This document shows, piece by piece, positions 2,758 to 41,253 of a stretch of DNA of 64,000 nucleotides; positions within the stretch are counted from its first letter, which is position 1; every line of letters starts with the position of its first letter. Source of the DNA: Vicinamibacterales bacterium (lineage in GTDB: Bacteria > Acidobacteriota > Vicinamibacteria > Vicinamibacterales > JAMQPK01); the NCBI GenBank assembly GCA_963790545.1, contig CAWBPA010000007.1:17668-81667 (forward strand), written 5' to 3'. A program made the position numbers and the translations under genes. A model generated the notes under the pieces. It did no database searches. It was not told the origin of the DNA and saw only the letters and a list, made by a program, of their open reading frames with translations.

Positions 2758-2809
2758 CGCGTGGGGCCCCACCCCCACGCGCTGCCGTCGCTTACGCTCC
2801 GGATCTTGC
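2758..2809. repeat. Solo partial copy of the ~80-bp hairpin repeat that is tandemly arrayed at 4439..4890
   Basis: cgcgtggggccccacccccacgcgctgccgtcgcttacgctccggatcttgc is identical to the first 52 nt of array unit 1. It contains a 9-bp stem: cgcgtgggg/ccccacgcg. Confidence 0.85.
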
Positions 2810-2838
2810 AACGAACATCGTGCCGCTTGAGTCATCGG

Positions 2839-3306: not shown

Positions 3307-3401
3307 AGCTCCGCCTCCCGCAATGTCCTTCACATTTCGGATCGACGCCGCGACGACTTACGTTCGTGGAAAGTTAGACACCGAGGAGCAAGAAACTGCT
3401 C

Positions 3402-4418
3402 TCAGGGCGCTTTCAGGGAAGATTCCTGCCCTTCCTGGACGCGGGCGGCGTTCAGGATGTTTGCGAGTCCGTAATTGCCCTCGTGGCAGGCGTATTCGAA
3501 AATCGGACCCTCGACCTGTCGAATGGTCGCCTCACCAGACCAGGGTTTCGTCCACGTCGCGGGGTCTTCGACCGTAAATTGATAGCGAATGGTGTCTTCA
3601 TCGACGCGCGTCAAGCGCTCGACCACGTGCAGCGTGCGGCTTGCGAAGATATCCTGCCGAGTCGTTTGCGGAGCGCCCCTGAAATTTGTGTCATCGGTGA
3701 AGTTGGTCGTATCGACGACGAGCGTGTGGCCTTCCCAGCGACCCCGTGAGTCGCCGGCCAGTTGCTGGACGTTCCTGCCCAGGTGCGGTCGTCCGTCAAG
3801 CGGAACGATGCGAACGTCGTGCATCATTTCATGGCGAATGACCACGTAGTCACGCGTCTGAAGAATTTGGAGATTGGCATTGTAGGTTGGCGGCACCATC
3901 GGTGGGCCGACGTTTCCCCAGGAAATACACCGCTCGGCCAACGATCGGTTCTGGGCGCTGTCCGAAGGTCCAGCCACACGCGCTTCGGCCCGGGCCGCTG
4001 CGCGTTTCTCAGCCGCTGGAGTCAGCGGCGGGATTCTTCCATCGGGTGGATCATTGATGAGCGACGTCCGAAGGTTTGCCTGCTTCAGATAATTCTCAGC
4101 CTGCCAGATTGCATCGTCGTAGTGAATGTTGTCCTTGGCTTGCCCAAGAAGCTGATCCTGACGCTTTTTGAAGTACGCCGCCGCTTCGGCTTCGGTGAAA
4201 AACTCCTTCTCCCCGAGCTCCAGCGGGCGTTCCACCGGAGTATAGGCATCGTTGGTCCAATATCCTTGGAGGTCTGGTTGACCGTCCGAAGTGCGCGGTG
4301 GAGTCCAGGTTGCCTTGGACGGCTCACCCGAACGCTGGTCAGCAATGGTCCCTGTGGTCAATGACAGCATCGCGATCAGGACCATGAGCACCGGCATAAC
4401 CATGACTCGACCGCTCAT
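3402..4418 (-). CDS. Secreted protein of unknown function, paralogue P1 of the 'FEYACHEGNY' family
   Basis: Has a signal peptide, then WTPPRTSDGQPDLQGYWTN, RIVPLDGRPH, GDSRGRWEGHTLVVDTTNF and FEYACHEGNY. The same blocks occur at 20114..21115 and 21248..22357. Confidence 0.75.
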   Translation of the reverse strand: MSGRVMVMPVLMVLIAMLSLTTGTIADQRSGEPSKATWTPPRTSDGQPDLQGYWTNDAYTPVERPLELGEKEFFTEAEAAAYFKKRQDQLLGQAKDNIHYDDAIWQAENYLKQANLRTSLINDPPDGRIPPLTPAAEKRAAARAEARVAGPSDSAQNRSLAERCISWGNVGPPMVPPTYNANLQILQTRDYVVIRHEMMHDVRIVPLDGRPHLGRNVQQLAGDSRGRWEGHTLVVDTTNFTDDTNFRGAPQTTRQDIFASRTLHVVERLTRVDEDTIRYQFTVEDPATWTKPWSGEATIRQVEGPIFEYACHEGNYGLANILNAARVQEGQESSLKAP

Positions 4419-4438
4419 ACGACCTCCATACTTTAGTG

Positions 4439-4890
4439 CGCGTGGGGCCCCACCCCCACGCGCTGCCGTCGCTTACGCTCCGGATCTTGCTAAACGGCCG
4501 TTCCACTAGTCAGCGATTCGCGTGGAGCCCCACCCCCACGCGCTGCCGTCGCTTACGCTCCGGATCTGCTAAACGGCCGTTCCACTAGTCAGCGATTCGC
4601 GTGGGCCCCACCCCCACGCGCTGCCGTCGCTTACGCTCCGGATTTCCACTATAGTCAGCGATTCGCGTGGGGCCCCACCCCCACGCGCTGCCGTCGCCCT
4701 TCGACTACGCTCAGGGCGACCCTGAGCCTGTCGAAGGGTCGCTTACGCTCCGGATCTTGCTAAAAACCGCCGTTCCACTTAGTCAGCGATTTTGAGTGGG
4801 CCGACACCCTCCCGCGCAGCCGTCGCCCTTCGACTACACAGGGCGACCCTGAGCCTGTCGAAGGGTCGCTTACGCTCCGGATCTTACTAC
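4439..4890. repeat. Tandem array of five ~66-125-bp units of a hairpin repeat; units 4 and 5 carry a nested second palindromic element
   Basis: Unit starts (cgcgtgg[g/a]gcccc...) fall at 4439, 4519, 4598, 4664 and about 4793. There are no unique spacers. The insert cccttcgac-N-tcagggcgaccctga-N-gtcgaaggg sits inside units 4 and 5. Confidence 0.9.
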
Positions 4891-4984
4891 CAGCGCTGAT
4901 CTTCACGTAGCGCGGACCCTTGAGGGTCCGCGGACCGAATAGCTGTACGGAAAAGGATGCAGGTGTTAGGATCCGGCTTGAATC

Positions 4985-15476: not shown

Positions 15477-15503
15477 GTAGCGCGGACCCTTTAAGGGTCC
15501 GCG
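15477..15503. repeat. REP-like hairpin (gtag-cgcggaccc-tttaa-gggtccgcg) between convergent genes
   Basis: 9-bp perfect stem with no U-tract. It belongs to a family seen at least 10 times in the window. Confidence 0.8.
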
Positions 15504-20113: not shown

Positions 20114-21115
20114 ATGCGGTCTCTCCGTTTTCTGGCGGGAAGCATTGCGGTCCTGGCGCTCGCGTCGATTCCGGTGTTTGGGCAGCAAACCAATCGGGCC
20201 CCGGCGAGCCGTGCGGCAACGGCAAAGGACTGGACGCCCCCGCGCACGCCATGGGGTCACCCCGATCTGCAAGGCATCTATACAAACAAAGATGAGTCGG
20301 GAATCCCGATGGAAAAACCCGATGGCCTTGCGACGAAAGGGACCGAAGAGGTCGAAGACAGCGAATTTGCAGAAATCGTGAGAGAACGAAACAAACAGAT
20401 TGTCGAGCGCGCACCGCTTGCCGGTGGCATCACGGGCGCCGGCCCAACGCACTGGTACGAAAACTACGACGCCAAGAACAGCCGCCTGTGGCTGTTGGTC
20501 GATCCGCCAGGCGGCAAGATCCCGGCCGAGACCGACGAAGCCAAAGCACGAGCGGCAGCCCGTGCTGACGCGCGCGCGAGAAGCGGCCGCGGCCCCGCCG
20601 ACTCCTGGGAAGATCGCAGTCTGTACGACCGCTGCATCTCTCTCAGCGTGCCAGGATCGATGACGCCAAAAATCTACGGCAACTCCTACGAAATCTATCA
20701 AGCGCCCGACTACGTGGCCATTCGATACGAGATGGTGCACGAGACGCGGATTATTCCGCTTGATGGGCGGCCGCACGTCAGCCCAGCCATTCGACAGTAC
20801 ATGGGCGACGCGCGCGGGCGTTGGGAAGGCAACACGCTGGTTGTCGAGACCACGAACTTCCACCCGAACGTCAACAACCGTGGAGCGACCGATCAGCTCA
20901 AGTTGATTGAACGTTTCACCGCCGTGTCTCCTGATAAGGTCGAGTGGTCGGTCACCTACGACGACGCGAAGACCTGGACGAAGCCCTGGACCTTCGCGAT
21001 GCGCTTGACCAAGGATCCGAGCCAGCAGATTTTCGAGTATGCCTGTCACGAGGGAAATTACGGCTTGCGCAACATCCTGAGCGCGGCGCGTGCTGAAGAA
21101 AAAGCCGGGAAGTAG
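20114..21115 (+). CDS. Secreted protein of unknown function, paralogue P2 of the 'FEYACHEGNY' family
   Basis: AAGGAG SD, signal peptide, DWTPPRTPWGHPDLQGIYTN, RIIPLDGRPH, GDARGRWEGNTLVVETTNF and FEYACHEGNYGL. Confidence 0.75.
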   Translation: MRSLRFLAGSIAVLALASIPVFGQQTNRAPASRAATAKDWTPPRTPWGHPDLQGIYTNKDESGIPMEKPDGLATKGTEEVEDSEFAEIVRERNKQIVERAPLAGGITGAGPTHWYENYDAKNSRLWLLVDPPGGKIPAETDEAKARAAARADARARSGRGPADSWEDRSLYDRCISLSVPGSMTPKIYGNSYEIYQAPDYVAIRYEMVHETRIIPLDGRPHVSPAIRQYMGDARGRWEGNTLVVETTNFHPNVNNRGATDQLKLIERFTAVSPDKVEWSVTYDDAKTWTKPWTFAMRLTKDPSQQIFEYACHEGNYGLRNILSAARAEEKAGK

Positions 21116-21247: not shown

Positions 21248-22357
21248 TTGACGCTCGTGACAACCCTGGCGTTGGCCTCAGTTCCAATCACAGGCCAGCA
21301 GGGCGCTGCGCGCTCGAGCAATACGGCCGCCGCAGCGGCCGATTGGACGCCGTCCAAAACGCCGTGGGGCGATCCCGATCTGCAGGGAACGTGGACCACC
21401 GATTCCGCAAACGGGATCCCGTTGCAACGTCCGGTCGAGTACGGAAACCGTGCGGAATTGACCGACGAAGAGTTCGCTCAGAAGCTGGCGAGAGACGAGC
21501 GGACGCGAACGGCGGCCGAGAATGCCGTCGGCTCCTTCCGGGGGGATGGAGCGTGGCTCACCCAGTCACTTCGCCAAACGTCGCTCATCATCGAACCGGT
21601 CGACGGCCGACTCCCGCCCTACGCGCCTGGCGCCGAAGCGCGGAGCTCCCCGCAAGGGACGTACGGGGAAGGTCCACTCGACGGGCCCGAAGACTTCACG
21701 ATGTACGATCGTTGCCTGACGCTCGGCGTCGTGGGCTCGATGACCCCGAAAATCTATGGAAATGGCCATCGCATCGTCCAGGGGCCTGGATACGTTTCGA
21801 TCATGAACGAGATGATTCACGAGGCCCGCATCATCCCGCTCGACGGTCGTCCGCACGTGGGAAGCAACATCCGACTGTACATGGGTGATGGACGCGGACG
21901 GTGGGAGGGCAACACGCTGGTCGTGGAAACGACCAATCTCACAGACAAGACGAACGCGCCTGGAGGCCGCATCCGTCACACGACCGAGATGAAGATCATC
22001 GAGCGTTTCACGCGGACCGCAAACGACACGCTTCGATATGAAGCCGTGCTCGACGATCCGAAGACCTTTACCAAGCCGGTGAAGATCTCCATTCCGTTGA
22101 CGTCGCCCTCTGGATATTTCGTCCTTCCCTACGATTGCCACGAGGGGAATCTTGCGTTGCTCCAGTCTCTGGGTGGTGAGCGCGCTGAGGACCTCGCAAT
22201 CGAGGAAGATCGCAAGAGAGGCATTATCCGGCCGAGGAAGATTATTCAGGGTCTCACCGTTCCAGGTGGACCGCTCGGGTCTCCCGGGCCCGTCAGTGGC
22301 GCAGCCCCACCGGCTCCCGCATCGCCCCAGGGAGGAACAGCGCCTCAGCCACGCTGA
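21248..22357 (+). CDS. Secreted protein of unknown function, paralogue P3 of the 'FEYACHEGNY' family
   Basis: DWTPSKTPWGDPDLQGTWTT, RIIPLDGRPH, GDGRGRWEGNTLVVETTNL and LPYDCHEGNL. The track start is TTG 21248. An ATG at 21223 with an AAGGA SD lies in another frame, so either a 1-nt indel near 21245 or a TTG start is possible. Confidence 0.7.
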   Translation: MTLVTTLALASVPITGQQGAARSSNTAAAAADWTPSKTPWGDPDLQGTWTTDSANGIPLQRPVEYGNRAELTDEEFAQKLARDERTRTAAENAVGSFRGDGAWLTQSLRQTSLIIEPVDGRLPPYAPGAEARSSPQGTYGEGPLDGPEDFTMYDRCLTLGVVGSMTPKIYGNGHRIVQGPGYVSIMNEMIHEARIIPLDGRPHVGSNIRLYMGDGRGRWEGNTLVVETTNLTDKTNAPGGRIRHTTEMKIIERFTRTANDTLRYEAVLDDPKTFTKPVKISIPLTSPSGYFVLPYDCHEGNLALLQSLGGERAEDLAIEEDRKRGIIRPRKIIQGLTVPGGPLGSPGPVSGAAPPAPASPQGGTAPQPR

Positions 22358-30490: not shown

Positions 30491-31135
30491 CTACTTCCCT
30501 TTCGTCACTTCAAACCCCTCGACGTGCACGTCGAGGACGTGATTCACCCGAACACCAGCAATGCCATCAGTCTTGGCCGTCATGCCGGTCTTGGGCGTGG
30601 TATGAACCACGGTGCCGTTGACGACGTAAGAAATCGTATTGCCGGCCACACGGGCTTCCAGAGTATTTCTCGATTGGCCTTTGGCATCGGGCTGCTGAAT
30701 GGCCTTGTGTGGAGTGGCCCTCTGCACATCGTGTGTGGCCTCGCCCGCCCGGTGCTTCACGAGGTACGTGCCGTCCTGTGCGATCAGGAAATAGATGTAG
30801 TTCTGACCGGCAGCGTCGAGGTCCCCGCCGCCAACGATGAGACCGTAGTAGTTGGTGTGGTTGCTCGGCTTGACGAGCGTAAACGTCGCCTTGACCGTGT
30901 AGTCCCCGGTGGCCGTGTTCGCAGGATTCCAGAACGTGCCGGCCGGACCACCAGTCACGTGGAAGCCCTTCCCCATGGTGACGAACTTCAGGTTGGGCGT
31001 ATTGTCGGGGTCCCCCGCACTCTGGCTGCGGTCAACGCGCACCTTCCAGCCCGCCGGGGCCTGTGCAGCAAGGGGAACGGTTAAGGCCGTAAGAACCGCG
31101 ATAATTCGAAGCAATTCGTGTGATCCACGTTTCAT
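30491..31135 (-). CDS. Secreted concanavalin-A-like / DUF1080-like jelly-roll protein
   Basis: GGAGG SD and a signal peptide (MKRGSHELLRIIAVLTALTVPLAAQA). The body is beta-rich. The similarity to DUF1080 is a weak judgement by eye. Confidence 0.4.
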   Translation of the reverse strand: MKRGSHELLRIIAVLTALTVPLAAQAPAGWKVRVDRSQSAGDPDNTPNLKFVTMGKGFHVTGGPAGTFWNPANTATGDYTVKATFTLVKPSNHTNYYGLIVGGGDLDAAGQNYIYFLIAQDGTYLVKHRAGEATHDVQRATPHKAIQQPDAKGQSRNTLEARVAGNTISYVVNGTVVHTTPKTGMTAKTDGIAGVRVNHVLDVHVEGFEVTKGK

Positions 31136-31242
31136 TCGCGACGCCTCCTCAGGCAATTGATTTTCTCTGACTGATACGTCTGCCCAGTGCCCGCAGTTTA
31201 CCAGCACAGACCGCGGGACCACATCGGCTTTCTCTGATATCC

Positions 31243-33127
31243 TTGCCTTCCAAACCCCTTACTTCGCCGGATCGAATGGCCAGGATGCATACACGGGGAC
31301 GCGGATCGCGCCGATCACGCACATGGTCCATGTGCGCGACCGCGCTGACGGGACTGTTCCTGCTAAGCGTCGTGACGGCTGGTCAAAGTCCGCGCGTAGA
31401 TGATGCGGTCTTGAAGGGCGCAGGCAAGACCGGCGAAGACTGGCTTACCTACGGGTTGAGTCAGTCGGAAACACGTTTCAGTCCCCTCGATGAAATCAAC
31501 ACGACCAATGTGAGTCGCCTTGGGTTGTCGTGGTCCTACGACCTTGGTCCAGGTGGCGGCGGTCAGGAAGCCACGCCGCTCGTCTGGAACGGCACGATTT
31601 ACGGAATTACGAACTGGAGCGTGGTATTCGCGGTCGATGCTCGCACCGGTAAAGAGCGCTGGCGTTGGGATCCGGAGGTGAACCAGACAGCGGTCCGTCC
31701 GAAGAATCTGTTGCGGCGTCGTCAATCGCGGTCTGGCGATTTACCAGGGGAAGATCTTCGCGCCCGTCATCGACGGCAGGCTGCAGGCCCTGGATGCGGA
31801 GACTGGAAAGGTCATTTGGGAATCGCGCGTCGCTTTTCCGCAAGACCAATTCACGATCACCATGGCGCCTCGTATTGCCAAGGGCAAAGTGATCATTGGT
31901 GTGAGCGGTGGCGATCGGCCGACTCGCGGATTTTTTGACGCCTACGATGCGGCCACGGGCCGGCGAGTGTGGCGCTTCTATACGGTCCCCGGCGATCCGT
32001 CCAAGCCGTTTGAGAACGCAGCCATGCGGAAGGCCGCCGAGACCTGGGATCAGGAGTGGTGGAAATTCGGCGGCGGCGGGGCCGTGTGGGACGGCATGGC
32101 CTACGATCCCGACGCCGGCCTCGTGTATGTCGGCACAGGCAACGCGGAGCCCTGGGCGCTGCAGTTCCGTTCATCCAAAGGGAAAGACAATCTCTACGTG
32201 TGCTCCATACTCGCGGTGCATGTGGACACTGGCGAGTTGAAGTGGCACTACCAGGTCGTGCCTGGCGACATTTGGGACTTCGACAGCGTGCAGCATCTGA
32301 TCCTGGCCGACCTGCCCATCGCTGGCCGTGTCCGCAAAGTCATCATGCAGGCCAACAAGAATGCGTTCTACTACGTGATCGATCGGATCACGGGAGAGTT
32401 CATCTCGGCTCAGCCGTTCTCAAAAGTGACGTGGGCCAAGGGCATCGACCAGAAGACCGGTCGCCCAATAGTGAATCCCGAGGCGTATTACGGCACCGAA
32501 CCGATTTCGATCTCACCCGGCGGAGGCGGCGCACACAACTGGTCGCCAATGTCGTTCAATCCCGTCACTGGTCTCGCGTATATCCCGACATCAACGAACA
32601 ACAGCTTCACGTACGCTGCAGAAGCCGCCTACACGCCTCAGCCAGGCCGGATGACCGGCACAGTCAGGCCGATGCCCACAGCGACGCGTCCTCCGCCGCC
32701 GGCCATCGGGCCAGAACCGCTCGAAGGTCCAGGGTCGAGAGGAGCCTTGGTGGCGTGGGACCCTGTTGCCCAACAAATGCGTTGGCGCATGCGCGGCGGG
32801 GGCGGGATTGGTGGCGGGACGCTGACGACTGCAGGAAATCTGGTCTTCCAAGTGATCAATGATGGACGTCTGCTGGCTTATAGTGCCGACAAGGGCGAGA
32901 AGTTGTTGGAGTTTCAGACCGGCTTGCGCAGCGGCATGGGGCCGCCCATCACCTATCAGCTCGATGGCAAACAGTACGTCTCGCTCATGGGTGGGGTTGG
33001 CACGGTGACGCTTGGAAACGCCGGCCCAGGCAATGCTGAGACGCTTTTTTCACCGAAGTTGCTGACGCTCGTTCTCGAGGGCAAGGCGCCGCTCCCATGG
33101 GCAACGCCGACGACGAGCTCTGAGTAA
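31243..33127 (+). CDS. Soluble PQQ-dependent alcohol dehydrogenase (type I quinoprotein), one frameshift near 31700
   Basis: ORF 31243..31938 joins the frame of ORF 31862..33127, which is open upstream. Shows vicinal CCGVVNRG, GGGAVWDGMAYDP, GTGNAEPW and WDFDS. It has eight-bladed-propeller length and no cytochrome domain. Confidence 0.8.
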
Positions 33128-33190
33128 GACATTTGTTTGCTAACGTAGCGGCGGGTCTTTAGACCCGCCGTCGATTGTCCCGGAGGAAAC

Positions 33191-33586
33191 ATGCGAGCAT
33201 GGCGATGCGTTGTGTTTTCGGTTGCGTGCCTCCTTGTTGTTACAGTCACAGCACAGGAAGGACATCCCCTGAAGGGCTCGTGGCTCGGCACCTGGGGTCC
33301 CAGCAAGCTTCACAGCAATGAAATCGTCCTCGTCATGAACTGGGACGGCAAAGCGATCACGGGCATGATCAATCCTGGCACCGACGACATTCCCATCAAG
33401 AATGCGACGCTCAATCCCGAAGGCTGGGTCGTACACCTCGAAGCGGACGCGAAGGACAAATCCGGCGCGATGATCAGCTACGTCATCGACGGCAAGATCG
33501 AGAACCTCTCGTTCCACAATCGCTCGATTGTTGGAACGTGGAAGAGTCAAAAAGAGAACGGACCGTTCAAGATCAGTCGGCAGTAG
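33191..33586 (+). CDS. Small secreted protein of unknown function (131 aa)
   Basis: GGAGGA SD, signal peptide, intact ORF directly downstream of the PQQ dehydrogenase. Confidence 0.5.
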   Translation: MRAWRCVVFSVACLLVVTVTAQEGHPLKGSWLGTWGPSKLHSNEIVLVMNWDGKAITGMINPGTDDIPIKNATLNPEGWVVHLEADAKDKSGAMISYVIDGKIENLSFHNRSIVGTWKSQKENGPFKISRQ

Positions 33587-33587
33587 T

Positions 33588-33652
33588 CGTAGCAGCGCAG
33601 GCCTTTAGGCAGTCGGCAGCAATCGTACGTAGCGCAGGCCTTTAGGCCTGCC
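33588..33652. repeat. Two adjacent REP-like hairpins (cgtagc-gcaggcc-ttta-ggcctgc type)
   Basis: The first copy is degenerate and the second is perfect. They belong to the same family as 12084..12110. Confidence 0.75.
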
Positions 33653-33663
33653 GGGAGCCGCGG

Positions 33664-34784
33664 ATGAAATCTGTTGCAAGCGTGTTGGCGTCAGTCGTTG
33701 TCGGACTCGTGCTGGCCACGGGGCTGGGGCTCGCGCACCATCCCATTTCGGCAAAGTTTGACGATACGCAAGCCGCTGACCCTCAGCGGAATCGTCACGT
33801 TGCTCGATTGGAGAAACCCCCACGTCCATGTGTTCATGAATGTTCGAGGGACGAACGAAACCGTGAACTGGGCCGTGGAGCTGGAGAGTCCCATCGAGCT
33901 GCAGCAGAGCGGCTGGAATCAGCGAATCGTTGCAACCCGGGGATGCGATCACCGTGGAAGGGATTGCCGCTCGCAACGGAAGCAATCAAGTGTGGGCCCG
34001 ATCGATTGTCCTGACAGGCACCGGTCGAAGGGTTCTGTACGTCACGCCCTCCCAGCCGCCTGCGCCTCTTCAGGTCCGCGCCACGCCGCGTTGGCCCGAC
34101 GGCCAGCCGAGGCTTGGCTCTGCAGTCGGTGGAACTCCGGGCTACTGGGCCAGCCCGAGCGCAACAGTGCTGAAGGAGAACGGGGTCGACGTCCCAATGG
34201 ATGCTTACGGCCTGCTCAAGAACATCGCCGATGCCTCCAAAGTGGCTCCGCTCCAGCCATGGGCCCTGGCCCTTTACACTCATCGCCAGAGAGAATTTCT
34301 GAAAGACGACCCAACATTTCTCAACTGCAAGCCGCCGGGCGGACCGCGTCAATTCCAGCTGCCGACCGGGGTGCAGTTCCTGGAAGACCGCGAACGACGG
34401 CGCATTTTTGTGCTAGTCGGTGGAGGTAATAACAACTTTCGTCTGATCTACCTGGATGGGCGGGGTCATGTAGGCCAGGTGGGGGGGGATGATGACAATC
34501 CTCTCTATTACGGCCGTTCGGTGGGAAAATGGGAGGGGGAGACACTGGTCCTCGACACCCGGGGGTTCAACGAAGATTTCTGGTTCACGAACGGGGGTCT
34601 GCCACATACCGAACAGCTTCGTCTGGTCGAGCGTTTCTCGCGACCCGATTTCGACACGCTGAAGTACGAGGTCACGGTTGAAGACCCGGGAGCGTATACG
34701 CGAGCCTGGTCGAGCGGGTGGACGATGCGATGGGTGGCGGGACAGGAGTTACCGAGAAGTTTGTGTCAGGATAATAGGCCGTAG
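33664..34784 (+). pseudogene. DUF6152 module fused to a 'W-[ED]-G-[DE]-T-L-[IV]' secreted-protein module (paralogue P4), with two 1-nt frame breaks near 33768 and 33925
   Basis: Three overlapping ORFs (33664.., 33674.., 33930..) read through as signal peptide-AHHPISAKFDD / KPLTLSGIVTLLDWRNPHVHVF...SGWNQ / LQPGDAITVEGIAARNGSNQVWARSIVL-...GRSVGKWEGETLVLDTRGFNEDFW.... There is no stop between the two modules. Confidence 0.6.
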
Positions 34785-34871
34785 ACTGTGCAACGTGACG
34801 CGCGTCACGTAAATGTAGAGGCGGGTCTTTAGACCCGCCGATCTGCGGTTCGTCAACAAGGAGAGACGACG

Positions 34872-35288
34872 ATGAGAGCGTACATACTCGGTGGCGTGAT
34901 CGCGATTGGAGTACTCCTAGCTGCCGGAAGAACCACCGCGCACCATTCGTTTGCCGCTGAGTTCGACGCCAACAAGCCCATCACGCTGACGGGCAAGGTC
35001 ACCAAGGTGGACTGGACGAACCCGCACGTGTGGTTCTACATCAACGTGAAGGACGAGAAGACGGGCGAGGTGTCCAACTGGGGCGCTGAAATGGGTCCAC
35101 CGCACGGACTCCAGCGGAGAGGGTGGCGGCGAGACACGCTCAAGATTGGTGAAGAGGTCACCGTATCGGGCTCGCTCGCGAAGAACGGCAGCAAGCGAAT
35201 GAATGCCAGGAGCGTCACGCTCACATCGACCGGCGGGCGTCCCGGCGAAACGCTGGATGCGCAGTCGAGCCAGCGCGAGAATCCGTAG
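34872..35288 (+). CDS. DUF6152-family small secreted protein
   Basis: AAGGAGAG SD and a signal peptide. The mature N-terminus is HHSFAAEFD, then TLTGKVTKVDWTNPHVWF and GWRRDTLKIGEEVTV. I recall this as the DUF6152 pattern. Confidence 0.7.
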   Translation: MRAYILGGVIAIGVLLAAGRTTAHHSFAAEFDANKPITLTGKVTKVDWTNPHVWFYINVKDEKTGEVSNWGAEMGPPHGLQRRGWRRDTLKIGEEVTVSGSLAKNGSKRMNARSVTLTSTGGRPGETLDAQSSQRENP

Positions 35289-35387
35289 GAAGGCTCAAGG
35301 CTGAAGGCTGAAGGCTCAAGTAGTCGGTACGTAGGGCGGACCTTCCAGGTCCGCCTCATAGGTCAACTGGTCTTAGGAGATCGCTCA

Positions 35388-36290
35388 ATGCGTCACCGAT
35401 TCATCCTGCTTGCCGCCGCAATGCTGTTCGCGTCGTCTCTACCAACCGGGTGGTTGTCGGCGCAGCAGCAACAGCAGCCGCCACGCGAATCAGACCGCAA
35501 CCAGCAGGTCGGCGTGCCTGCCGGCCGCCAAGGCGGCGAAGGACGGGGGGTGCAGGGTGTCGTCGGTGGTCTCGCCCAGCCACAAAAGGAACCGCCGCGC
35601 CCGGCGCCGCGCGGAGAGAATGGCCGTGTGCTGCTTGGGGGCGCGACTCCAGAGGATAAAGGGGTCTGGCTTCCTGGGCGCGGAGCCCTTGCGGCCTTTG
35701 TGGAGACCGAAGCGGTTCCCTTTCAACCGTGGGCGCGGGCGCTTTACGCCGATCGCCGACAAAATCAGCTGGAGCCGCACACGCGGTGCAAGCCCTCAGG
35801 CACGGTTCGACAATTCATTACGCCGTATGGCGTCGAGTTCGTCGAGTTCCGGGATCTCCAGCGGATCTACATCTTCGACATTGGGGGCCCTCACACCTAC
35901 CGCACGATTTACATGGACGGGCGCACGCATCCCAAGAACCTGACGCCCAGCTACTACGGTCACTCGATTGGCTGGTGGGACGGCGACACGCTCATCGTCG
36001 AGACGACCGGGTTCAACGAGAGCTTCTGGATGGATCGGCAAGGGCTGCCGCACACCGAAAAGCTGCGCACGCTCGAGCGCTTCACCCGCGCGGATGCCGC
36101 GACAATCAAGTACGAGCTGATGGTTGACGATCCTGGCGCTTACACGGCCACGTGGAAGGCCGGGATGGATCTGCGCTGGGAGCGCGGGACGGAGCTATTC
36201 GAATACGTGTGCCAGCAGGCGAATTACGCGCACGAGCTCATGCTGGGGCAGCATGAGTCGGTGGATCGCAGCAGTCCGATTGTGCCGTAA
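35388..36290 (+). CDS. Secreted protein of unknown function, paralogue P5 (distant branch of the 'FEYACHEGNY' family)
   Basis: GGAGA SD, signal peptide, Gln-rich linker, then RCKPSGTVRQF, IYMDGRTHP, GHSIGWWDGDTLIVETTGFNESFW and LFEYVCQQANY. Confidence 0.7.
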   Translation: MRHRFILLAAAMLFASSLPTGWLSAQQQQQPPRESDRNQQVGVPAGRQGGEGRGVQGVVGGLAQPQKEPPRPAPRGENGRVLLGGATPEDKGVWLPGRGALAAFVETEAVPFQPWARALYADRRQNQLEPHTRCKPSGTVRQFITPYGVEFVEFRDLQRIYIFDIGGPHTYRTIYMDGRTHPKNLTPSYYGHSIGWWDGDTLIVETTGFNESFWMDRQGLPHTEKLRTLERFTRADAATIKYELMVDDPGAYTATWKAGMDLRWERGTELFEYVCQQANYAHELMLGQHESVDRSSPIVP

Positions 36291-36557
36291 GCCACGTCGC
36301 CAACGGCGGTCGTCGTCGATTGACGAGGACATGTCACTTCGGCACCGCTCATGCTCGCGACACCCCGAACAAGGTATGTGTCGCTCGCGCCGGCCTGCCT
36401 TCGGACATGTCCTCGCCAATCGACTGAAACGACCGGTCTCCGATTGGCGTTCGCCCGCTTGAGTAGCGCTGTGCGACGGGCGTAGCGTCCGGCTTCCGCC
36501 TTCGCATAAAGCTTCGGCGGACCGCCATAGCCTTGGCGACGGCGGTTAGCCGGACAT

Positions 36558-37499
36558 CTAGTGATCCCATGAGGCCGCGGTGATTCTGTCCGAAGGCCCG
36601 GCTGGCTCGATCAGGTCAAGCGCGAACCGCATACGCCGCAACAGGACGCCATGGTCGCGACAGATGCCGCTGATCATGGCAGTCTGGTCCGCTGGAAGTC
36701 GCGAATCGCAATCAGAAAAGTGGAAATTTCGCGACGCTCGAGAAGTGGCTGGCAGATCCACGATGCTGCCGACGACGCGCACGCCTTCGATGTTCCAGCG
36801 ACGCTTGGTCGGATCGTCGTCGATGAATCCCGCCGGCGTCAGTCCGATATCCGGGTTCTGAAGCAGCTCGCGAACGAGCAGGTGTCCCCCCTTCCCCGCC
36901 CCGTATATCAAGGCTTTGCTGCCACGCGTGCGCCGTTTGCGGAGATATTCGTCTGCCTTCGTGATCATCACTCGAGAACACACCAGCAAAAAGGCGAGGA
37001 TGGCGCCATCGGTCACGAACACGCCGCGCGAGAACCCGACGAACCGGTAGAGATACACCAGCAGGAGAACCGACGCCGCCAGGCCAAGAACCAAACCCTT
37101 CAGGATGGTGATGAGCTCTGGTGATCCGAATGTTGAGCTTGCCTGGCGATACTTGCCAACCCACCAGAGGCTGGCCAGTTGCGCGGCCACCACGAGTGGA
37201 AACGACCTCACAAAATAGGGGATGAACTGCGAAAATTGCGGCTCCGCAAAACGAATGCTGAACGCCGCGTAGTACGCGAGAACGATCAGGCCAACGTCCA
37301 GCAGGACTTCGTAGACCCGATATCGGTACGTCAGCTCAGACACGAGCGGCGTCTGTGAACTGGCATCTTCTTCAGCCGCGTCCGCTTCCGATGGATTGAC
37401 ATGACCTAACACGATGCCGAGCCCCATCAGAAGCAGCGTATACAGGCCTGTCAGCGTTGCCGCATAGCGGAGGCTGAGATACTGGAAGCTTAGCGCCAC
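36558..37499 (-). CDS. N-terminal 4-TM + Rossmann-like module of a CapD/PglF/WbaP-type polysaccharide biosynthesis protein; the catalytic C-terminal domain is absent
   Basis: TM helices, then KALIYGAGKGGHLLVRELLQNPDIGLTPAGFIDDDP...VRVVG. At 313 aa it is much shorter than full-length family members. Confidence 0.45.
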   Translation of the reverse strand: MALSFQYLSLRYAATLTGLYTLLLMGLGIVLGHVNPSEADAAEEDASSQTPLVSELTYRYRVYEVLLDVGLIVLAYYAAFSIRFAEPQFSQFIPYFVRSFPLVVAAQLASLWWVGKYRQASSTFGSPELITILKGLVLGLAASVLLLVYLYRFVGFSRGVFVTDGAILAFLLVCSRVMITKADEYLRKRRTRGSKALIYGAGKGGHLLVRELLQNPDIGLTPAGFIDDDPTKRRWNIEGVRVVGSIVDLPATSRASRNFHFSDCDSRLPADQTAMISGICRDHGVLLRRMRFALDLIEPAGPSDRITAASWDH

Positions 37500-38381
37500 G
37501 CCCCTCCGATCGCAGCCAGACAGTAAAGGAGGAATACGGCCTCACGCTCAGTGGCTCCCAACCGCACAAGGCGGTGCGAGCTGTGGTCCCGTCCGCCCAC
37601 CATCGCGCGGCGGCCTGCGAGTCGCCTCGTCAGCGTCACGAGGAAGGTGTCGAAAATTGGCACCAGCAGAATGAGCAACGGGACGAGCAGAATCGAGACA
37701 AGCTCAGTCTTCAAGCCCGGCATCGACAGAAGACTGACACCGGCCAAAAACGACCCGATGAAATGACTGCCCGAGTCGCCCATGAAGATGGAGGCCGGCC
37801 GGAAGTTGTAAATAAGAAACCCAATCATCGCGCCCACGAACGCGGCAAGGGCCACAGCCGTCGCGCTCTCCGCAGTGGCGAGCACGATCAGATAGAACGT
37901 CCCCCCGATAGCGGCAACACCCGCCGCCAGGCCGTCGATGTTGTCGAGCAAGTTGAACGCGTTGGTCATGCCGACGATCCATGCGAAGGCCAGAACCAGG
38001 TCGAGGACCGGAAGCCCGGTGATGTTGAATTGGCAGCGCGTAGTAAATCGCCACCGCTGCCACAACCATCTGACCGACGAACTTCGTGACGGGCCTGAAG
38101 CCGCCGTAAATCGTCCACCACGCCGAACGCGAACATCAGTCCGGAGCAGACCAAAAGTGGGAGAGCGGCCGAAGCTCAGCCGTAACAGCGACCCCAATGA
38201 CAGTGGCGGCGGCCATGGCGACTCCACCAAGCAGCGCCACCGGTTGCCGGTGCCAGCGATCTCGCTGCGGGTAGGACAGAATCTGATAGTGAGAGGCGAT
38301 TGACCGAACTAGAGGGGTGAGGATTGCGGCGGCTGACAAAGGCGATGCCAAACGGTACGAGATCTCAATCGCCCGTAGCAC
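37490..38381 (-). pseudogene. WecA/MraY-family polyprenyl-phosphate HexNAc-1-phosphate transferase (GT4 family), at least 3 frame breaks
   Basis: The gene is spread over four frames. Pieces include RDRWHRQPVALLGGVA (38136..38381), GVVDDLRRLQ (37966..38154), and NAFNLLDNIDGLAAG and IFMGDSGSHFIG (37490..38230). Confidence 0.65.
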
Positions 38382-38613: not shown

Positions 38614-39764
38614 ATGCCGTCGCCCACCGTATCGGTTCTGGTTCTCAACCTCAACGGCTGTGAGCATCTGAAATCCTGCCTGCCCACGCTCGAAGCCCAG
38701 ACCTATCCGAGGAATCGTTACGAAATTGTCGTCGTGGATAACGGTTCCACCGACGACTCGCTCGCCTTCGTTCGAGACGCGCCATCCCGACGTCCGCATC
38801 ATTTCGTACAGTTCGAATCGAGGTTTTGCCGAGGCCTACAACGCCGCGGCAGCGCTCTGTCAGACCGAATTCGTCGCGTTCCTGAACAACGATACCCGCG
38901 TGGCCCCAGGCTGGCTCATGGAACTCATGGCAACCGCGAATCGACATGGCGCAGCCTGCGCCGCCTCCAGGATTCTGGACTGGACCGGCGAGCGCATCGA
39001 CTTCGCTGGCGGGTACGTTTCGTTCCTCGGTCATTCCTGGCAGCGGGACGCAGGCCAGCCAGCAACGAAAGAGTATGGGGAAGATCGGCTGCTGTTTGCC
39101 TGCGGTGGGTCCATGCTGGTCAATCGCGCCACGTTCCTTGATGCCGGCGGCTTCGACCCTCAGTTCTTTGCCTATTTCGAGGACGTGGATCTCGGTTGGC
39201 GATTGTCATTGCTGGGACACACGACCGTGTTCGCGCCCGCTGCGGTAACGTATCACCGGTTGCACGGTACTGCGGGGCGATGGGCCGCGGCACCTCGCCT
39301 TCGACTGTACGAACGCAATGCGCTCATGATGATCTACAAGAACTACGAGCGCGAGACGCTCGCCCGCGTCTTCCCGGTGGCGGTGGCGCTGGCGCTTGCC
39401 CGCGCGTGCGCTCACACGGCGCTCGATCCCCGAACCTTCGAGTTCGGCAACAGGATTCCGGATCGGGTGCCTGTGTCGCCCCGCACAATTGCCCAGCTGA
39501 TTGGCCTCGAGGATTTCGCGTGTCAACTTCCCCTCCTCGCCGAGAAACGGCAGGAGATTCAGCGACGCCGGCAGCGCACTGACCGAGAGCTATTTCCGCT
39601 TTTCTCGGATCCTTTGCGGCTGCATGACATCGACACCCAGTACGAAGCAGACTGCACGCTCGCTGATTGCGGAGTTCGAGATAGACAAATGGTTTGGCGC
39701 GACGCGAGCCGTATCGCGATGCCTCCAGTCGGTCACCAGCCGTGGGACGTCGACGTCGATATCA
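38614..39764 (+). pseudogene. Family-2 glycosyltransferase module 1 (paralogue of 39765..41253; may be one two-domain protein with it), at least 2 frame breaks
   Basis: VSVLVLNLNGCEHLKSCLPTLEAQTYP..EIVVVDNGSTDDS (ORF 38614..) is followed by NRGFAEAYN, FLNNDT, YFEDVDLGWR and RLYERNAL (ORF 38726..). It then shifts into the frame of ORF 39501... Confidence 0.6.
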
Positions 39765-41253
39765 ATGAGCGGGCTCGACCGGCCCGTCGAGGAAGTGGGT
39801 CAGCCGGGCGAATTCGATCGCCCACTCGTGACGGTTGTCATTCTCGTGGCGGGTACGCCGGTTCATCTTCCCGAATGCCTGGCGTCGTTGCGCACGCAGA
39901 CCTATCCGGCCGAGAGTCGCGAAGTCATTGTCGTTGACAATGGATCGGTCGAGGATCCAACGGCAGTGGTTGAAGCGGACTATCCCGGGGCACGCGTGAT
40001 CAGAAACGCGACGAACCTTGGCTTCGCCGCCGGCAACAACATAGGCGCCCGTGCGGCAAGAGGGAAGTTCGTCGCGTTTCTCAACGACGACACGAGGGCA
40101 CATCCTGACTGGCTAATGCGGCTCGTCACGACGGTTCAACGTCGTCGCGTGGCATGCGTGGCAAGCCAGATCCTTACGTGGGATGGTCAGCACATCGATT
40201 TTGCCGGCGGTTCGTCAAACTTCGAGGGCAAAGGCTTTCAGAGCGGTTACGGGCGGCCCGCAGGCTGCAACTTCCGAACAGCCGTTGCTCTTCCCTTGCG
40301 GCGCGGCCATGCTGGTGGACCGCGAGACGTTCCTCAACGCCGGCGGCTGGGACGAAGGGACGTTCGCGTACTACGAGGATGTCGAGCTCGGCTGGCGCTT
40401 GTGGCTGTTGGGCGAGGAAGTCTGGCTCGTGCCACAGGCCACCGTTTTTCATAAACACCACGGGACCTCGGGCCGATGGAGCGAGGTGTCGCGTGTTCGC
40501 TTGTACGAACGTAACGCGCTACGCATGCTCTACACCCATCTGGAGCGTGAGAACCTCGAACGCGTGCTGCCCGCAGCGCTGCTGCTTTCAGCCGACCGCG
40601 TCCTGCTCCATGCCGGCTTTGGTCGCGACGGTCGGGAGCATGAGTGGGACGGAACCTTGCCGATCGCGAGACCAGGCATCCTCCGACGGCTGATCGCCGC
40701 CTCGCGCGCTTTGCCGCTCTCCTTCAAACGGGAACTTGTGGCCCGGGGTGCAGTCAAATATCTGTCCGCCTCTGAGAACCTGAGCCGCGTCGGTGTGCGG
40801 GGTCTCTTGGGTGCGGCAAGAGCGGCAATTCGGACCGCTCCACTCCGCCAGGACCCACGACCGTGCGGGTTCGAACCTCGTACCTGATTGAACGTGGGGC
40901 GCAGGACCCGGTTTTCGATCGGTCCAGTGAGCTGATTCCGGCGACTTCTGGTGCCGGGATTGGTGGGATTGACAGAGTTTCTGGAGAGTTTGCCGCAGCT
41001 CGAGCAGCGACGAACCTGGTTGCAGGCGCGTCGCCGACGCAGCGACCTCGACATCCTCGGGCGCTTCAATCAGCATTGGCTGTCCCACTCTCCAGCCGCT
41101 CGCCAGCAACCGCACGACGAGCTGCAGAAGCTCCTTGTCGAGACGTTCCGCATCGCCGAGATTGCTGGTATCCACGCGACCAGACAGTCCGTTGGTGCGG
41201 AAAGCGCGTCGTACAGGCCGAACGGTAGACCAGCGCTGAAACGGGTTCCCTGA
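39765..41253 (+). pseudogene. Family-2 glycosyltransferase module 2, at least 3 frame breaks
   Basis: VTVVILVAGTPVHLPECLASLRTQTYP..EVIVVDNGSVED, NLGFAAGNN and FLNDDT (ORF 39501..40454); YYEDVELGWR and RLYERNAL (40183..40887); tail in 40863.. and 40951..41253. Confidence 0.6.

What the first reader, a model, noticed from the sequence alone, without database searches (positions are those of the whole stretch)
33664..36290. DUF6152 paired twice with an uncharacterised secreted protein, once as a natural fusion
- **Second pair (separate genes):** 34872..35288 is a 138-aa DUF6152-type protein (mature HHSFAAEFD..., WTNPHVWF). It is followed by 35388..36290, a 300-aa secreted protein (GHSIGWWDGDTLIVETTGFNESFW, LFEYVCQQANY).
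- **First pair (fused):** 33664..34784 repeats both modules (AHHPISAKFDD...LLDWRNPHVHVF..., then GRSVGKWEGETLVLDTRGFNEDFW). There is no stop codon and no second signal peptide between them. It reads as one polypeptide once two 1-nt frame breaks (about 33768 and about 33925) are bridged.
- **Interpretation:** conserved adjacency plus a fusion is classic evidence that two families act together. Neither has a known function as far as I know.
- **Context:** the block sits directly downstream of a PQQ dehydrogenase and its small secreted partner.
Basis: partly seen in the sequence, partly recalled or inferred. Interest (0 to 1): 0.75.

Follow-up and report, generated by a model that had tools for sequence, protein, structure and literature searches.

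The report
Conserved DUF6152 plus partner gene cluster
A four-gene cluster for secreted proteins pairs a small histidine-tipped domain (DUF6152) twice with an uncatalogued barrel protein, once fused and once as neighbouring genes; the cluster is real and conserved across soil and marine bacteria, it points to an uncharacterised and probably metal-handling periplasmic complex, and the two frame breaks in this copy are assembly errors.

Summary
Window 33664..34784 encodes a DUF6152 domain joined to a C-terminal module "X". It is followed by a separate DUF6152 gene (34872..35288) and a separate X gene (35388..36290).

- **Frame breaks.** They are single extra bases at 33766 and 33919. A 90%-identical relative lacks both and carries its own indels elsewhere. 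Substitutions are mostly synonymous. Hundreds of intact ~372-aa orthologues exist. The fusion is therefore real and the breaks are assembly errors.
- **Unit.** The true unit has four genes, s–DX–D–X. The 131-aa "partner of the PQQ dehydrogenase" (33191..33586) is its first gene. About 50 of 78 reference-genome loci from Vicinamibacterales, Gamma- and Alphaproteobacteria carry it. The PQQ dehydrogenase neighbour is not conserved.
- **DUF6152.** It is a secreted OB-fold. Its only invariant residues are His-His at the predicted mature N-terminus and a Pro-His about 27 residues later.
- **X and s.** Neither has a Pfam family or a significant structural relative.
- **Other partner.** In other lineages DUF6152 pairs with a small membrane protein (DUF6644).

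Best reading, with the mechanism inferred: a periplasmic N-terminal-histidine metal-binding head working with interchangeable partners. No paper in the searched library mentions DUF6152 or DUF6644. Interest is moderate to high.

The parts
33191..33586 (+). Gene 's': a 131-aa secreted protein and the first gene of the conserved cluster. The predicted mature N-terminus QEGHPxKGSW and the C-terminal RQ are invariant.
   Evidence: It sits directly upstream of the fused gene in L001-L003 and in about 50 of 78 reference loci. In a 30-sequence alignment, Q22 E23 G24 H25 P26 and others are invariant. It has no Pfam or PDB hit.
33664..34784 (+). Gene 'DX': a natural fusion of DUF6152 to the X module, 372 aa once two spurious bases (33766 and 33919) are removed.
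   Evidence: Intact orthologues such as P0121 are 85% identical over 100% of the length.
33733..34031 (+). DUF6152 OB-fold domain of DX. It starts at the predicted mature N-terminus His-His (residues 25-26) and contains NPH.
   Evidence: Pfam PF19649 at E=9.5e-22. The AlphaFold2 model of orthologue P0121 has strands 33-49, 56-63, 66-73, 95-103 and 109-117. Foldseek finds only OB-fold proteins, at E around 1e-4.
33766..33766 (+). Extra A that shifts frame 1 to frame 2; an assembly indel.
   Evidence: The window reads GACGATACGCAAG where L082 reads GACGAT-CGCAAG, which is in frame there (FDDRKPLT).
33919..33919 (+). Extra T that shifts frame 2 to frame 3; an assembly indel.
   Evidence: The window reads TGGAATCAGCGAA where L082 reads TGGAA-CAGCGAA, which is in frame there (GWNSEA).
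34077..34781 (+). X module of DX. It begins at the conserved PRWPDGQPRLG arm and ends ...CQDNRP.
   Evidence: It is 42% identical to 35388..36290. The model shows helices followed by eight beta strands.
34872..35288 (+). Gene 'D': a stand-alone 138-aa DUF6152 protein with signal peptide ...TTA|HHSF.
   Evidence: Pfam E=8e-30. It belongs to a separate orthogroup from the fused D domain.
35388..36290 (+). Gene 'X': a stand-alone 300-aa partner. It has a signal peptide, a disordered Q/G/P-rich tail of about 45 residues, then a helical segment and a beta-barrel core.
   Evidence: More than 5,000 homologues, none with a Pfam domain. The AlphaFold2 model has pLDDT below 50 for residues 17-62. Invariant residues are C134, R172, D177, G191, W197, E230, D248 and C275.
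33149..33170 (.). GC-rich intergenic hairpin CGGCGGGTCTTTAGACCCGCCG between the PQQ dehydrogenase and s.
   Evidence: The same element recurs at 34820..34839.
34820..34839 (.). Intergenic hairpin GGCGGGTCTTTAGACCCGCC between DX and D.
35335..35355 (.). Intergenic hairpin GGCGGACCTTCCAGGTCCGCC between D and X.

Best explanation
The locus is a conserved, self-contained four-gene operon, s–DX–D–X, whose products are all exported to the periplasm.

Shown here:
- DUF6152 (D) and X are obligate-looking partners. They appear as a covalent fusion and as adjacent genes, and the fused and split units are two ancient paralogous pairs kept side by side. This suggests a hetero-oligomeric assembly that also includes s.
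- The frame breaks in this copy are assembly errors.

Inferred:
- D is an OB-fold 'head'. After signal-peptide cleavage its first two residues are histidines. Together with the invariant Pro-His of the NPH motif, and possibly the conserved Asp of FD, they form a transition-metal site of the N-terminal-histidine ('histidine-brace-like') kind.
- D docks onto its partner and hands over, or shares, the bound ion or ligand. The partner is the disulfide-closed beta-barrel X in this cluster, or the 4-TM membrane protein DUF6644 in other lineages.
- The system would therefore work like CopC–CopD (YobA–YebZ), YcnI–YcnJ, or the 'anglerase' domains fused to HupE/UreJ permeases. It is not a member of any of those families.

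The metal, and whether X stores, passes on or uses it catalytically, remain open.
For: Partnership:
- The best 120 homologues of the bridged protein are intact fusions of 363-388 aa that carry PF19649.
- The cluster s-DX-D-X is found in L001-L003. It is clean in 42 of 78 GTDB loci, and about 8 more carry it broken by frameshifts or contig ends. The hosts are Vicinamibacterales, Gammaproteobacteria, Hyphomicrobiales and Rhodospirillaceae.
- 108 of 169 X domains have D within 900 bp upstream.
- Other D/X arrangements occur in cultured Sphingomonadales.
- No other neighbour is shared by more than 16 of 82 loci.
- Fused D and stand-alone D form distinct orthogroups. Median identity is 67% among stand-alone copies and 49% among fused copies across phyla, against 37-39% between the two types.
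- The AlphaFold2 model of fused orthologue P0121 has pLDDT 81 and pTM 0.76. That pTM is more than the X module alone could contribute, which hints at a defined D:X arrangement.

Frame breaks are errors:
- L082 is in frame at both sites and has three different 1-nt indels of its own.
- The window also carries an extra G at 31704 in the PQQ dehydrogenase and a split GT2 gene.
- Substitutions against L082 fall 17/10/65 by codon position, with 54 synonymous and 23 non-synonymous codons.

Metal head:
- In 138 of 138 N-terminally complete DUF6152 representatives, HH directly follows an Ala at a median leader length of 24 residues. 137 of 138 have [N/D]PH.
- In an 82-sequence alignment the only invariant residues are H24, H25, P51 and H52.
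- In all nine tandem D-D proteins the internal second domain has lost HH, NPH or both.
- Conserved N-terminal histidines after signal peptides were shown experimentally to bind Cu or Ni in four unrelated folds (PMC12537917).
- The fold is an OB-fold, and the periplasmic haem chaperone CcmE is among the structural hits.

Interchangeable acceptor:
- Another branch of D is followed at 0-12 bp by a 162-170 aa DUF6644/DUF2214-like membrane protein with an invariant His.
- Some loci contain D, X and DUF6644 together.
Against: - No metal transporter, metallochaperone or metal-responsive regulator is conserved next to the cluster, and I recognised no Fur- or Zur-like box upstream of s.
- Signal-peptide cleavage before HH is predicted, not measured.
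- Three internal second domains of tandem D-D proteins keep HH (P0285, P0313, P0375), so a free N-terminus may not be essential.
- X has no recognisable metal motif and only insignificant matches to avidin, FABP and lipocalin barrels (best E=0.04). Those folds usually bind small organic ligands.
- In Sphingomonadales the pairs sit beside TonB-dependent receptors, flavin monooxygenases and sulfonate-utilisation genes, which fits handling of an organic substrate equally well.
- 21 of 78 loci have X with no D nearby.
Confidence: 0.5

Rival explanations
1. The fused gene in this organism is a genuine pseudogene, inactivated by two real frameshifts, and the split D+X pair has taken over its role.
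For: Two +1 breaks lie within 155 nt of each other. The nearest relative L082 also has a broken DX gene. No 99%-identical intact copy was found.
Against: - L082 is in frame at both window sites and is broken at a different place.
- Both assemblies show sporadic 1-nt indels in other, unrelated genes (PQQ dehydrogenase, GT2, D, X).
- Substitutions are concentrated at third codon positions (17/10/65), with 54 synonymous and 23 non-synonymous codons.
- DX is a separate orthogroup retained in about 50 loci.
Confidence: 0.07
2. D–X is a periplasmic carrier or processing module for an organic, probably hydrophobic or sulfur-containing, substrate imported through TonB-dependent receptors. X's barrel binds the ligand, and the D histidines serve in docking or catalysis without a metal.
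For: - The best, though insignificant, fold matches of X are the ligand-binding barrels avidin, FABP/UnaG and Tp0751.
- In Croceibacterium the order is D-D-X-TonB receptor-MarR. In Sphingobium, X-D-X-D lies among TonB receptors, LLM monooxygenases, a peroxiredoxin, tauD and ssu genes.
- X carries invariant Arg, Asp and Glu residues typical of a polar ligand pocket.
Against: - TonB receptors are absent from the s-DX-D-X neighbourhoods and from the D-DUF6644 loci.
- It does not explain why the only invariant residues of D are three histidines and a proline, two of the histidines at the mature N-terminus.
- All fold matches are above E=0.04.
Confidence: 0.2
3. D–X is an extracytoplasmic copper (or other redox-metal) enzyme. 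The N-terminal histidine site of D is the active centre and X supplies the substrate pocket, so it would be a new oxidase or peroxygenase rather than a carrier.
For: - The N-terminal His-plus-His signature resembles LPMO and PmoB-type braces (PMC10952591 listed).
- Peroxide-handling genes lie nearby in two unrelated contexts: GSHPx and CMD in L001, and a peroxiredoxin in L084.
- X has an invariant cluster of charged residues.
Against: - Other newly tested N-terminal-His proteins showed only weak oxidase activity and were judged to be binders or transporters (PMC12537917).
- The pairing of D with a small membrane protein in many genomes fits hand-over better than catalysis.
- No electron-donor gene is conserved nearby.
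Confidence: 0.15
4. The adjacency is only operon hitch-hiking of two abundant secreted families, with no physical or functional coupling.
For: X has many solitary paralogues: three in this window and 21 X-only loci. D also occurs without X.
Against: - The covalent fusion is conserved in thousands of proteins.
- The same adjacency recurs in at least five gene orders and across phyla.
- 64% of sampled X domains have D directly upstream, although D is a rare family.
Confidence: 0.03

Closest known systems
CopC–CopD copper handling pair (E. coli YobA–YebZ; B. subtilis YcnI and the fused YcnJ)
   Same: A small periplasmic protein whose mature N-terminus is a histidine (YobA...VWA|HAH) is encoded next to its acceptor protein. 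Both split and fused forms exist in nature (my own knowledge; YcnI/YcnJ papers listed). The D–DUF6644 two-gene unit has the same layout.
   Different: D is an OB-fold, not the Ig-like CopC fold, and has no CopC Pfam hit. The partner in this window is a soluble barrel, not a membrane protein. The DUF6644 profile shows no detectable homology to YebZ (hhalign probability 0.2). Metal binding is untested.
N-terminal-histidine 'signal-strapped' metalloproteins (DUF4198, DUF6702, and the anglerases Ang-1/Ang-2 fused to HupE/UreJ permeases; PMC12537917)
   Same: A secreted DUF family with a conserved His immediately after the signal peptide, and a head domain fused or adjacent to an acceptor protein. 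Conservation of His1 in DUF6152 (138/138) equals or exceeds that reported for those families (65-100%).
   Different: DUF6152 appears in neither the text nor the supplements of that paper. Its fold differs (OB-fold versus beta-sandwich or cleft folds). It has a His-His doublet plus NPH. Its acceptors (X, DUF6644) are different families.
Periplasmic OB-fold chaperones CusF (Cu/Ag) and CcmE (haem)
   Same: A small secreted five-stranded OB barrel that carries a metal or cofactor to a partner. CcmE is among the Foldseek hits (8ce8_E, E=5.8e-4).
   Different: No sequence similarity. CusF uses His/Met/Met/Trp ligands and CcmE uses a C-terminal His (my own knowledge), not an N-terminal His-His.
Calycin-type beta-barrels (avidin/streptavidin, FABP, lipocalin-like Tp0751)
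   Same: The X core is predicted as an up-and-down barrel of about eight strands, and these are its best structural matches.
   Different: The matches are not significant (E of 0.04 or above, query TM 0.2). X has an extra N-terminal arm and a helical segment, an invariant Cys pair, and no Pfam family.
Rosetta-stone fusions of periplasmic metal proteins, such as ZnuA-like AdcA fused to a ZinT domain versus separate ZnuA and ZinT (my own knowledge)
   Same: Two secreted partners are found either fused or as separate genes.
   Different: Here the fused and split versions coexist as paralogues in the same operon, and the families are unrelated to ZnuA and ZinT.

Membership tests
Pfam DUF6152 (PF19649) | HMM score above the gathering threshold (27 bits) | tested here: met
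   103.2 bits for 34872..35288 and 77.4 bits for the bridged 33664..34784.
Pfam DUF6152 (PF19649) | Family signature of signal peptide, then Ala|His-His, then W-x-N-P-H | tested here: met
   Both window copies carry it (TTA|HHSF...WTNPH and GLA|HHPI...WRNPH). Family-wide it is present in 138/138 and 137/138 representatives.
OB-fold superfamily (for D) | Five-stranded barrel recognisable by structure comparison | tested here: met
   Foldseek of the fused-orthologue model hits the LysRS anticodon-binding domain, CcmE, SSB and PriB at E 1.5e-4 to 5e-3, probability 1.0. This rests on a predicted model only.
Histidine-brace / N-terminal-His metalloproteins | His is residue 1 of the mature protein | tested here: inconclusive
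   The sequence context (hydrophobic leader, AxA|HH, median leader 24 aa) predicts it in all 138 representatives. Cleavage was not measured.
Histidine-brace / N-terminal-His metalloproteins | A second ligand histidine lies close to His1 in space | not testable with these tools
   The invariant H52 (NPH) is a candidate.
Histidine-brace / N-terminal-His metalloproteins | Demonstrated binding of Cu or another transition metal | not testable with these tools
   Needs recombinant protein with ITC, EPR or crystallography.
CopC family | CopC sequence profile and Ig-like beta-sandwich fold | tested here: not met
   No CopC hit in Pfam at E up to 1. The predicted fold is an OB-fold.
CopD family (for the alternative partner DUF6644) | Detectable homology to a CopD protein | tested here: not met
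   DUF6644 profile against E. coli YebZ gives hhalign probability 0.2. Only weak Pfam hits to DUF2214 were seen. This was a weak test against a single sequence.
BOF / YgiW-YdeI periplasmic OB-fold stress proteins | Match to NCBIfam NF033674 | tested here: not met
   1 of 82 members matched, at E=0.025.
Calycin / lipocalin / avidin superfamily (for X) | Significant structural match to a member | tested here: not met
   Best Foldseek E=0.042 (shwanavidin 3szh_A), query TM 0.21. No Pfam lipocalin hit in 136 members.
Any Pfam / NCBIfam family (for X and s) | Profile hit above threshold | tested here: not met
   0 of 136 X members and 0 of 30 s members reach any family, apart from DUF6152 in the fused rows. 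There were no PDB profile hits.

The most novel reading that the evidence does not exclude
DUF6152 would be a new, very widespread class of secreted histidine-brace-type metalloprotein built on an OB-fold, with about 10,900 clusters at 50% identity. With its dedicated partners (the uncatalogued barrel X, the small protein s, or the membrane protein DUF6644) it would form a previously unrecognised periplasmic system for capturing and handing over a metal, or for metal-dependent oxidation, in soil Acidobacteriota and Proteobacteria.
Probability: 0.3. Interest if true: 0.75.

Novelty: new variant of a known kind. Interest (0 to 1): 0.6.

Why it matters
- **Testable handle on three uncharacterised families.** The system links DUF6152 (about 10,900 clusters at 50% identity) with the Pfam-less families X (more than 5,000 homologues) and s.
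- **Strong partner evidence.** The fusion and the repeated adjacency give unusually good genomic grounds for which proteins to co-express.
- **First experiment is obvious.** The invariant N-terminal His-His and NPH signature points to testing metal binding of mature D and transfer to X or DUF6644.
- **Payoff if confirmed.** It would add an OB-fold member to the short list of N-terminal-histidine metalloproteins. It would also reveal a periplasmic metal-handling route in abundant, mostly uncultured soil bacteria (Vicinamibacterales).
- **Annotation warning.** The case shows how indel-rich long-read assemblies disguise real fusions as pseudogenes or split genes.

Tried and rejected
- **Sequence searches of X, s, D and DUF6644 against the PDB, as single sequences and as profiles:** nothing below E=0.05.
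- **Pfam and NCBIfam scans of every member of the X, s and D alignments at relaxed thresholds:** no consistent weak family.
- **Foldseek of the X model against the PDB:** no significant match.
- **Foldseek of the fused model:** only the OB domain was informative.
- **Profile comparison of s with X:** unrelated.
- **DUF6644 compared with the E. coli CopD-family protein YebZ:** no homology detected. I therefore dropped the idea, recalled from memory, that DUF6644/DUF2214 is CopD-like, and kept only the analogy.
- **Search for conserved neighbours of the cluster by all-against-all clustering of ORFs from 82 loci:** nothing is shared by more than 16 loci. The shared genes are ankyrin, metallo-beta-lactamase, DUF1552 and TolB-like. 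A DUF1080-like gene is nearby in only 7.
- **PQQ dehydrogenase link:** rejected, because the adjacency appears only in the congeneric L082.
- **Programmed frameshifting:** rejected, because the sites are not conserved and a close relative reads through them in frame.
- **Promoter and terminator consensus scan of 32900..36700:** no promoter-like site, and terminator-like sites no more frequent than in shuffles.
- **GC3 frame plot:** too noisy to map frameshifts.
- **Exact look-up of the window's X protein in the contig collection:** not on record.
- **Literature:** DUF6152 and DUF6644 each return 0 papers, and 'histidine brace' with 'OB-fold' returns 0.
Full report
**1. What is in the sequence**

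ORF listing and three-frame translation show four consecutive plus-strand genes.
- 33191..33586 encodes a 131-aa protein, here called 's'.
- 33664..34784 is read in three frames.
- 34872..35288 encodes a 138-aa protein.
- 35388..36290 encodes a 300-aa protein.

Pfam places 34872..35288 in DUF6152 (PF19649, E=8e-30). The frame-bridged 33664..34784 product also falls in DUF6152 (residues 19-107, E=9.5e-22).

The 300-aa protein, here called 'X', has no Pfam, NCBIfam or PDB sequence match.

The C-terminal two-thirds of the bridged protein is 42% identical to X (E=5e-56). Its N-terminal domain is 47% identical to the stand-alone DUF6152 ('D'). The two modules are joined by a Pro-rich linker, with no stop codon and no second leader peptide.

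**2. The frame breaks are assembly errors**

A close relative was found through a 91%-identical X protein: L082, from ENA sample ERZ25039555. It is 89-90% identical at the DNA level over 5.3 kb and has the same gene order.

A global alignment gives the following picture.
- The window has one extra base at 33766 (A) and one at 33919 (T). L082 is in frame at both sites (FDDRKPLT and GWNSEA).
- The window also has an extra G at 31704 inside the PQQ dehydrogenase, which is intact (613 aa) in L082.
- L082 has its own single-base indels at other places in DX, D and X (window positions 34135, 34911 and 35487).
- Pfam profile coordinates confirm the PQQ dehydrogenase break and show a further split gene in the window: a family-2 glycosyltransferase is divided between two frames at about 38700-38800.

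After removing the two bases, the gene is a clean 372-codon ORF. Its differences from L082 fall 17/10/65 on codon positions 1/2/3, with 54 synonymous and 23 non-synonymous codons. That is the pattern of purifying selection.

The best 120 database homologues of the bridged protein are intact proteins of 363-388 aa that carry PF19649. The closest is 85% identical over its full length.

I conclude that the fusion is real and the breaks are sequencing or assembly indels. I put the chance of a genuine pseudogene at roughly 0.07. Programmed frameshifting is excluded because the sites are not conserved.

**3. The real unit is a four-gene cluster**

Contexts of two fused orthologues from other genomes show the same order both times: a small protein of 124-132 aa, then a fused protein of about 373 aa, then a DUF6152 of about 140 aa, then a Pfam-less protein of 292-306 aa. 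The flanking genes are otherwise unrelated.

I then fetched 78 loci from the GTDB species-representative genomes with an alignment of X. I scanned them with HMMs built from the session's own alignments of D and X, and with a phmmer search using s.
- 42 loci have a clean s-DX-D(-D)-X(-X) cluster.
- About 8 more have the same cluster broken by frameshifts or contig ends.
- 21 show X only.
- The rest show other D/X arrangements, such as X-X-X-D or divergent D-X pairs.
- Across all loci, 108 of 169 X domains have a D domain within 900 bp upstream on the same strand. Of these, 49 are fused and 59 are separate.

Hosts include Vicinamibacterales and other Acidobacteriota, Gammaproteobacteria and Pseudomonadales, Hyphomicrobiales and Rhodospirillaceae.

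All-against-all clustering of flanking ORFs found no other gene family in more than 16 of 82 loci. The cluster is therefore autonomous.

The PQQ dehydrogenase is adjacent only in the window and its congener L082. The 'small secreted partner' of the dehydrogenase is in fact gene 1 of the cluster. Thirty s proteins share an invariant predicted mature N-terminus QEGHPxKGSW and an invariant C-terminal RQ.

**4. Two old paralogous pairs, not one gene in two states**

D domains of fused proteins and stand-alone D proteins form separate orthogroups.
- Stand-alone copies are 67% identical (median) across phyla.
- Fused copies are 49% identical across phyla.
- The two types share only 37-39% identity (maximum 49%), even within one locus.

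The duplication and fusion therefore predate the spread of the cluster, and both units are retained. This suggests non-redundant subunits of one assembly.

**5. What the proteins look like**

*Fused orthologue P0121.* The AlphaFold2 model has pLDDT 81 and pTM 0.76. The D part is a five-stranded barrel. Foldseek matches only OB-folds: the LysRS anticodon-binding domain, the periplasmic haem chaperone CcmE, SSB and PriB, at E around 1e-4.

*X.* The model has pLDDT 73. It shows a signal peptide, a disordered Q/G/P-rich stretch of about 45 residues, an ordered arm, helices, and about eight beta strands. Its best PDB matches are avidin, FABP-like proteins and lipocalin-like Tp0751. None is significant (E of 0.04 or above). 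Invariant residues across X and its distant paralogues are C134, C275, R172, D177, G191, W197, E230 and D248. The two cysteines are a likely disulfide pair.

*Coverage by known families.* Neither X nor s belongs to any Pfam family.

*Paralogues.* X is part of a larger superfamily. The window alone has three more paralogues without D.

**6. The DUF6152 signature**

An exhaustive phmmer search finds 10,905 clusters at 50% identity with E up to 1e-3.
- In all 138 N-terminally complete representatives, His-His directly follows an alanine after a hydrophobic leader of median length 24. This is the layout of a signal peptide cleaved as AxA|HH. In 137 of them [N/D]PH follows about 25 residues later.
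- In an 82-sequence alignment spanning the family, the only invariant residues are H24, H25, P51 and H52.
- In nine tandem D-D proteins the first domain keeps both motifs. Every internal second domain has lost HH, NPH or both, although three of them keep HH.

A 2025 study showed experimentally that a conserved histidine exposed by signal-peptide cleavage predicts Cu or Ni binding in four unrelated folds, including head domains fused to HupE/UreJ permeases (PMC12537917). DUF6152 is mentioned in neither its text nor its supplements. No paper in the library mentions DUF6152 or DUF6644.

**7. A second partner**

*Cultured Sphingomonadales.* D and X are again adjacent.
- Croceibacterium has D-D-X-TonB receptor-MarR.
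- Sphingobium has X-D-X-D beside two DUF6644 genes, TonB receptors, monooxygenases, a peroxiredoxin and sulfonate-utilisation genes.
- Novosphingobium humi has DUF6644 x2, a GH39-like gene, then X-D-TetR.

*Other lineages.* In Azospirillum, Cupriavidus and four unrelated metagenomic contigs, D has no X. It is followed at 0-12 bp by a 162-170 aa membrane protein of the DUF6644/DUF2214 type, which has an invariant histidine.

*Mixed loci.* DUF6644 pairs also occur beside some s-DX-D-X clusters.

The layout resembles E. coli yobA (CopC, mature N-terminus His) followed by yebZ (CopD). However, a DUF6644 profile shows no detectable homology to YebZ. This is an analogy, not membership.

**8. Interpretation**

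*Shown.*
- D and X are functionally coupled, by fusion and by repeated adjacency in several orders and phyla.
- The coupling is embedded in a conserved four-gene cluster for secreted proteins.
- The window copy is intact apart from assembly indels.

*Inferred.*
- D is a periplasmic OB-fold head with an N-terminal-histidine metal site formed by His1, His2 and the NPH histidine.
- It works with interchangeable acceptors: soluble X here, membrane DUF6644 elsewhere.
- The closest analogies are CopC-CopD, YcnI-YcnJ and anglerase-HupE.

*Open.*
- The identity of the metal.
- Whether X stores, relays or uses it.
- The role of s.

*Rivals.*
- An organic-ligand carrier linked to TonB uptake (0.2).
- A new copper oxidase (0.15).
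- A true pseudogene (0.07).
- Mere hitch-hiking (0.03).

*Weak points.*
- No metal genes or regulator boxes are conserved nearby.
- Signal-peptide cleavage is predicted only.

**9. Verdict**

- The frame breaks are at 33766 and 33919 and are artefacts.
- The small protein belongs to the cluster.
- The PQQ dehydrogenase is incidental.

The system is an undescribed association of one catalogued DUF with two uncatalogued families. Under the best explanation it is a new variant of the known kind 'secreted N-terminal-histidine metal-binding protein plus partner'. Interest is 0.6.

Noticed in passing
window 31704; 33766; 33919; about 38700-38800: The window carries sporadic single-base indels that split real genes: the PQQ dehydrogenase at 31704, DX twice, and a family-2 glycosyltransferase (38614..39141 and 38726..39937). 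Truncated Pfam coverage of neighbouring genes (the GT4 gene 37490..38230, the CoA_binding_3 gene 36558..37499 and the GT2 gene 39501..40454) suggests further breaks, which I did not verify. The related assembly L082 has different indels. This looks like an indel-rich long-read assembly, so any 'pseudogene' call in this window needs caution.
   Followed up: partly
window 3402..4418 (-), 20114..21115 (+), 21248..22357 (+): Three further secreted paralogues of the X superfamily (338, 333 and 369 aa; motifs DGQPDLQG.W, DGRPH, G.W.G.TLVV.T.N and FEYxCHEGN) have no DUF6152 nearby and no Pfam family. Two of them are in tandem. X is therefore a large multi-copy superfamily, and only one branch is tied to DUF6152.
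   Followed up: partly
window 33149..33170, 34820..34839, 35335..35355 (also 4911..4932, 15481..15503; a second type at 2758..2781, 4438..4463, 4664..4687): Near-identical GC-rich perfect hairpins recur in intergenic gaps (GGCGGGTC-TTTA-GACCCGCC, CGCGGACCC-TT(T)-A(A)GGGTCCGCG and CGCGTGGGG-CCCCAC-CCCCACGCG). Three of them separate the genes of the cluster. They look like REP-type repeated palindromes rather than T-tailed terminators.
   Followed up: partly
L009-L011, L015, L016, L021, L035, L037, L038, L042, L044, L052: 60-110 bp upstream of the s gene: A conserved promoter-like element, CTTGAACAC(G/A)CTTTCGTGAAT(G/A)GCTTACGCTTGC, lies upstream of s in many Vicinamibacterales loci. It combines a TTGAA(C) -35-like box, a CACG-N4-CGTG palindrome and a TACGCT -10-like box, and could be an operator. 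It is absent from the window, where s follows the PQQ dehydrogenase by 64 bp.
   Followed up: no
L087-L092, L047, L049, L055, L058, L067, L084-L086: DUF6152 forms a tight two-gene unit with a DUF6644/DUF2214-like 4-TM membrane protein, often present as two tandem copies, in Azospirillum, Cupriavidus, Sphingomonadales and metagenomic contigs. DUF6644 has an invariant His in its first helix and a GR(W/L)IAY C-terminus. No paper in the searched library mentions either family.
   Followed up: partly
P0261, P0285, P0293, P0313, P0319, P0329, P0365, P0375 (220-248 aa); P0295 (390 aa): Tandem DUF6152-DUF6152 proteins exist. The N-terminal copy always keeps HH and NPH, and the internal copy is degenerate at one or both motifs. 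P0295 has two internal domains without HH behind a long N-terminal region.
   Followed up: partly
L055, L058, L066, L067 (about 1500..3700, minus strand): In several proteobacterial loci a long X-family protein of about 530 aa, followed by a D gene, lies divergently upstream of the s-DX-D-X cluster. In L055, L058 and L067 two DUF6644 genes sit beside it, giving three D/X units plus membrane partners in about 7 kb.
   Followed up: no
window 30491..31222 (-); L001 6884..7510; L050 3004..3717: A secreted DUF1080-like / 3-keto-disaccharide-hydrolase-like protein (weak Pfam hit) lies close to the cluster in 7 of 82 loci. It is directly upstream of s in L001 and L050, so the association is loose and possibly coincidental.
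   Followed up: partly
L019, L025, L062 (record titles): Three loci with typical Vicinamibacterales-like clusters come from MAGs titled 'uncultured Bifidobacteriaceae bacterium'. This is probably a mislabelled or contaminated bin.
   Followed up: no
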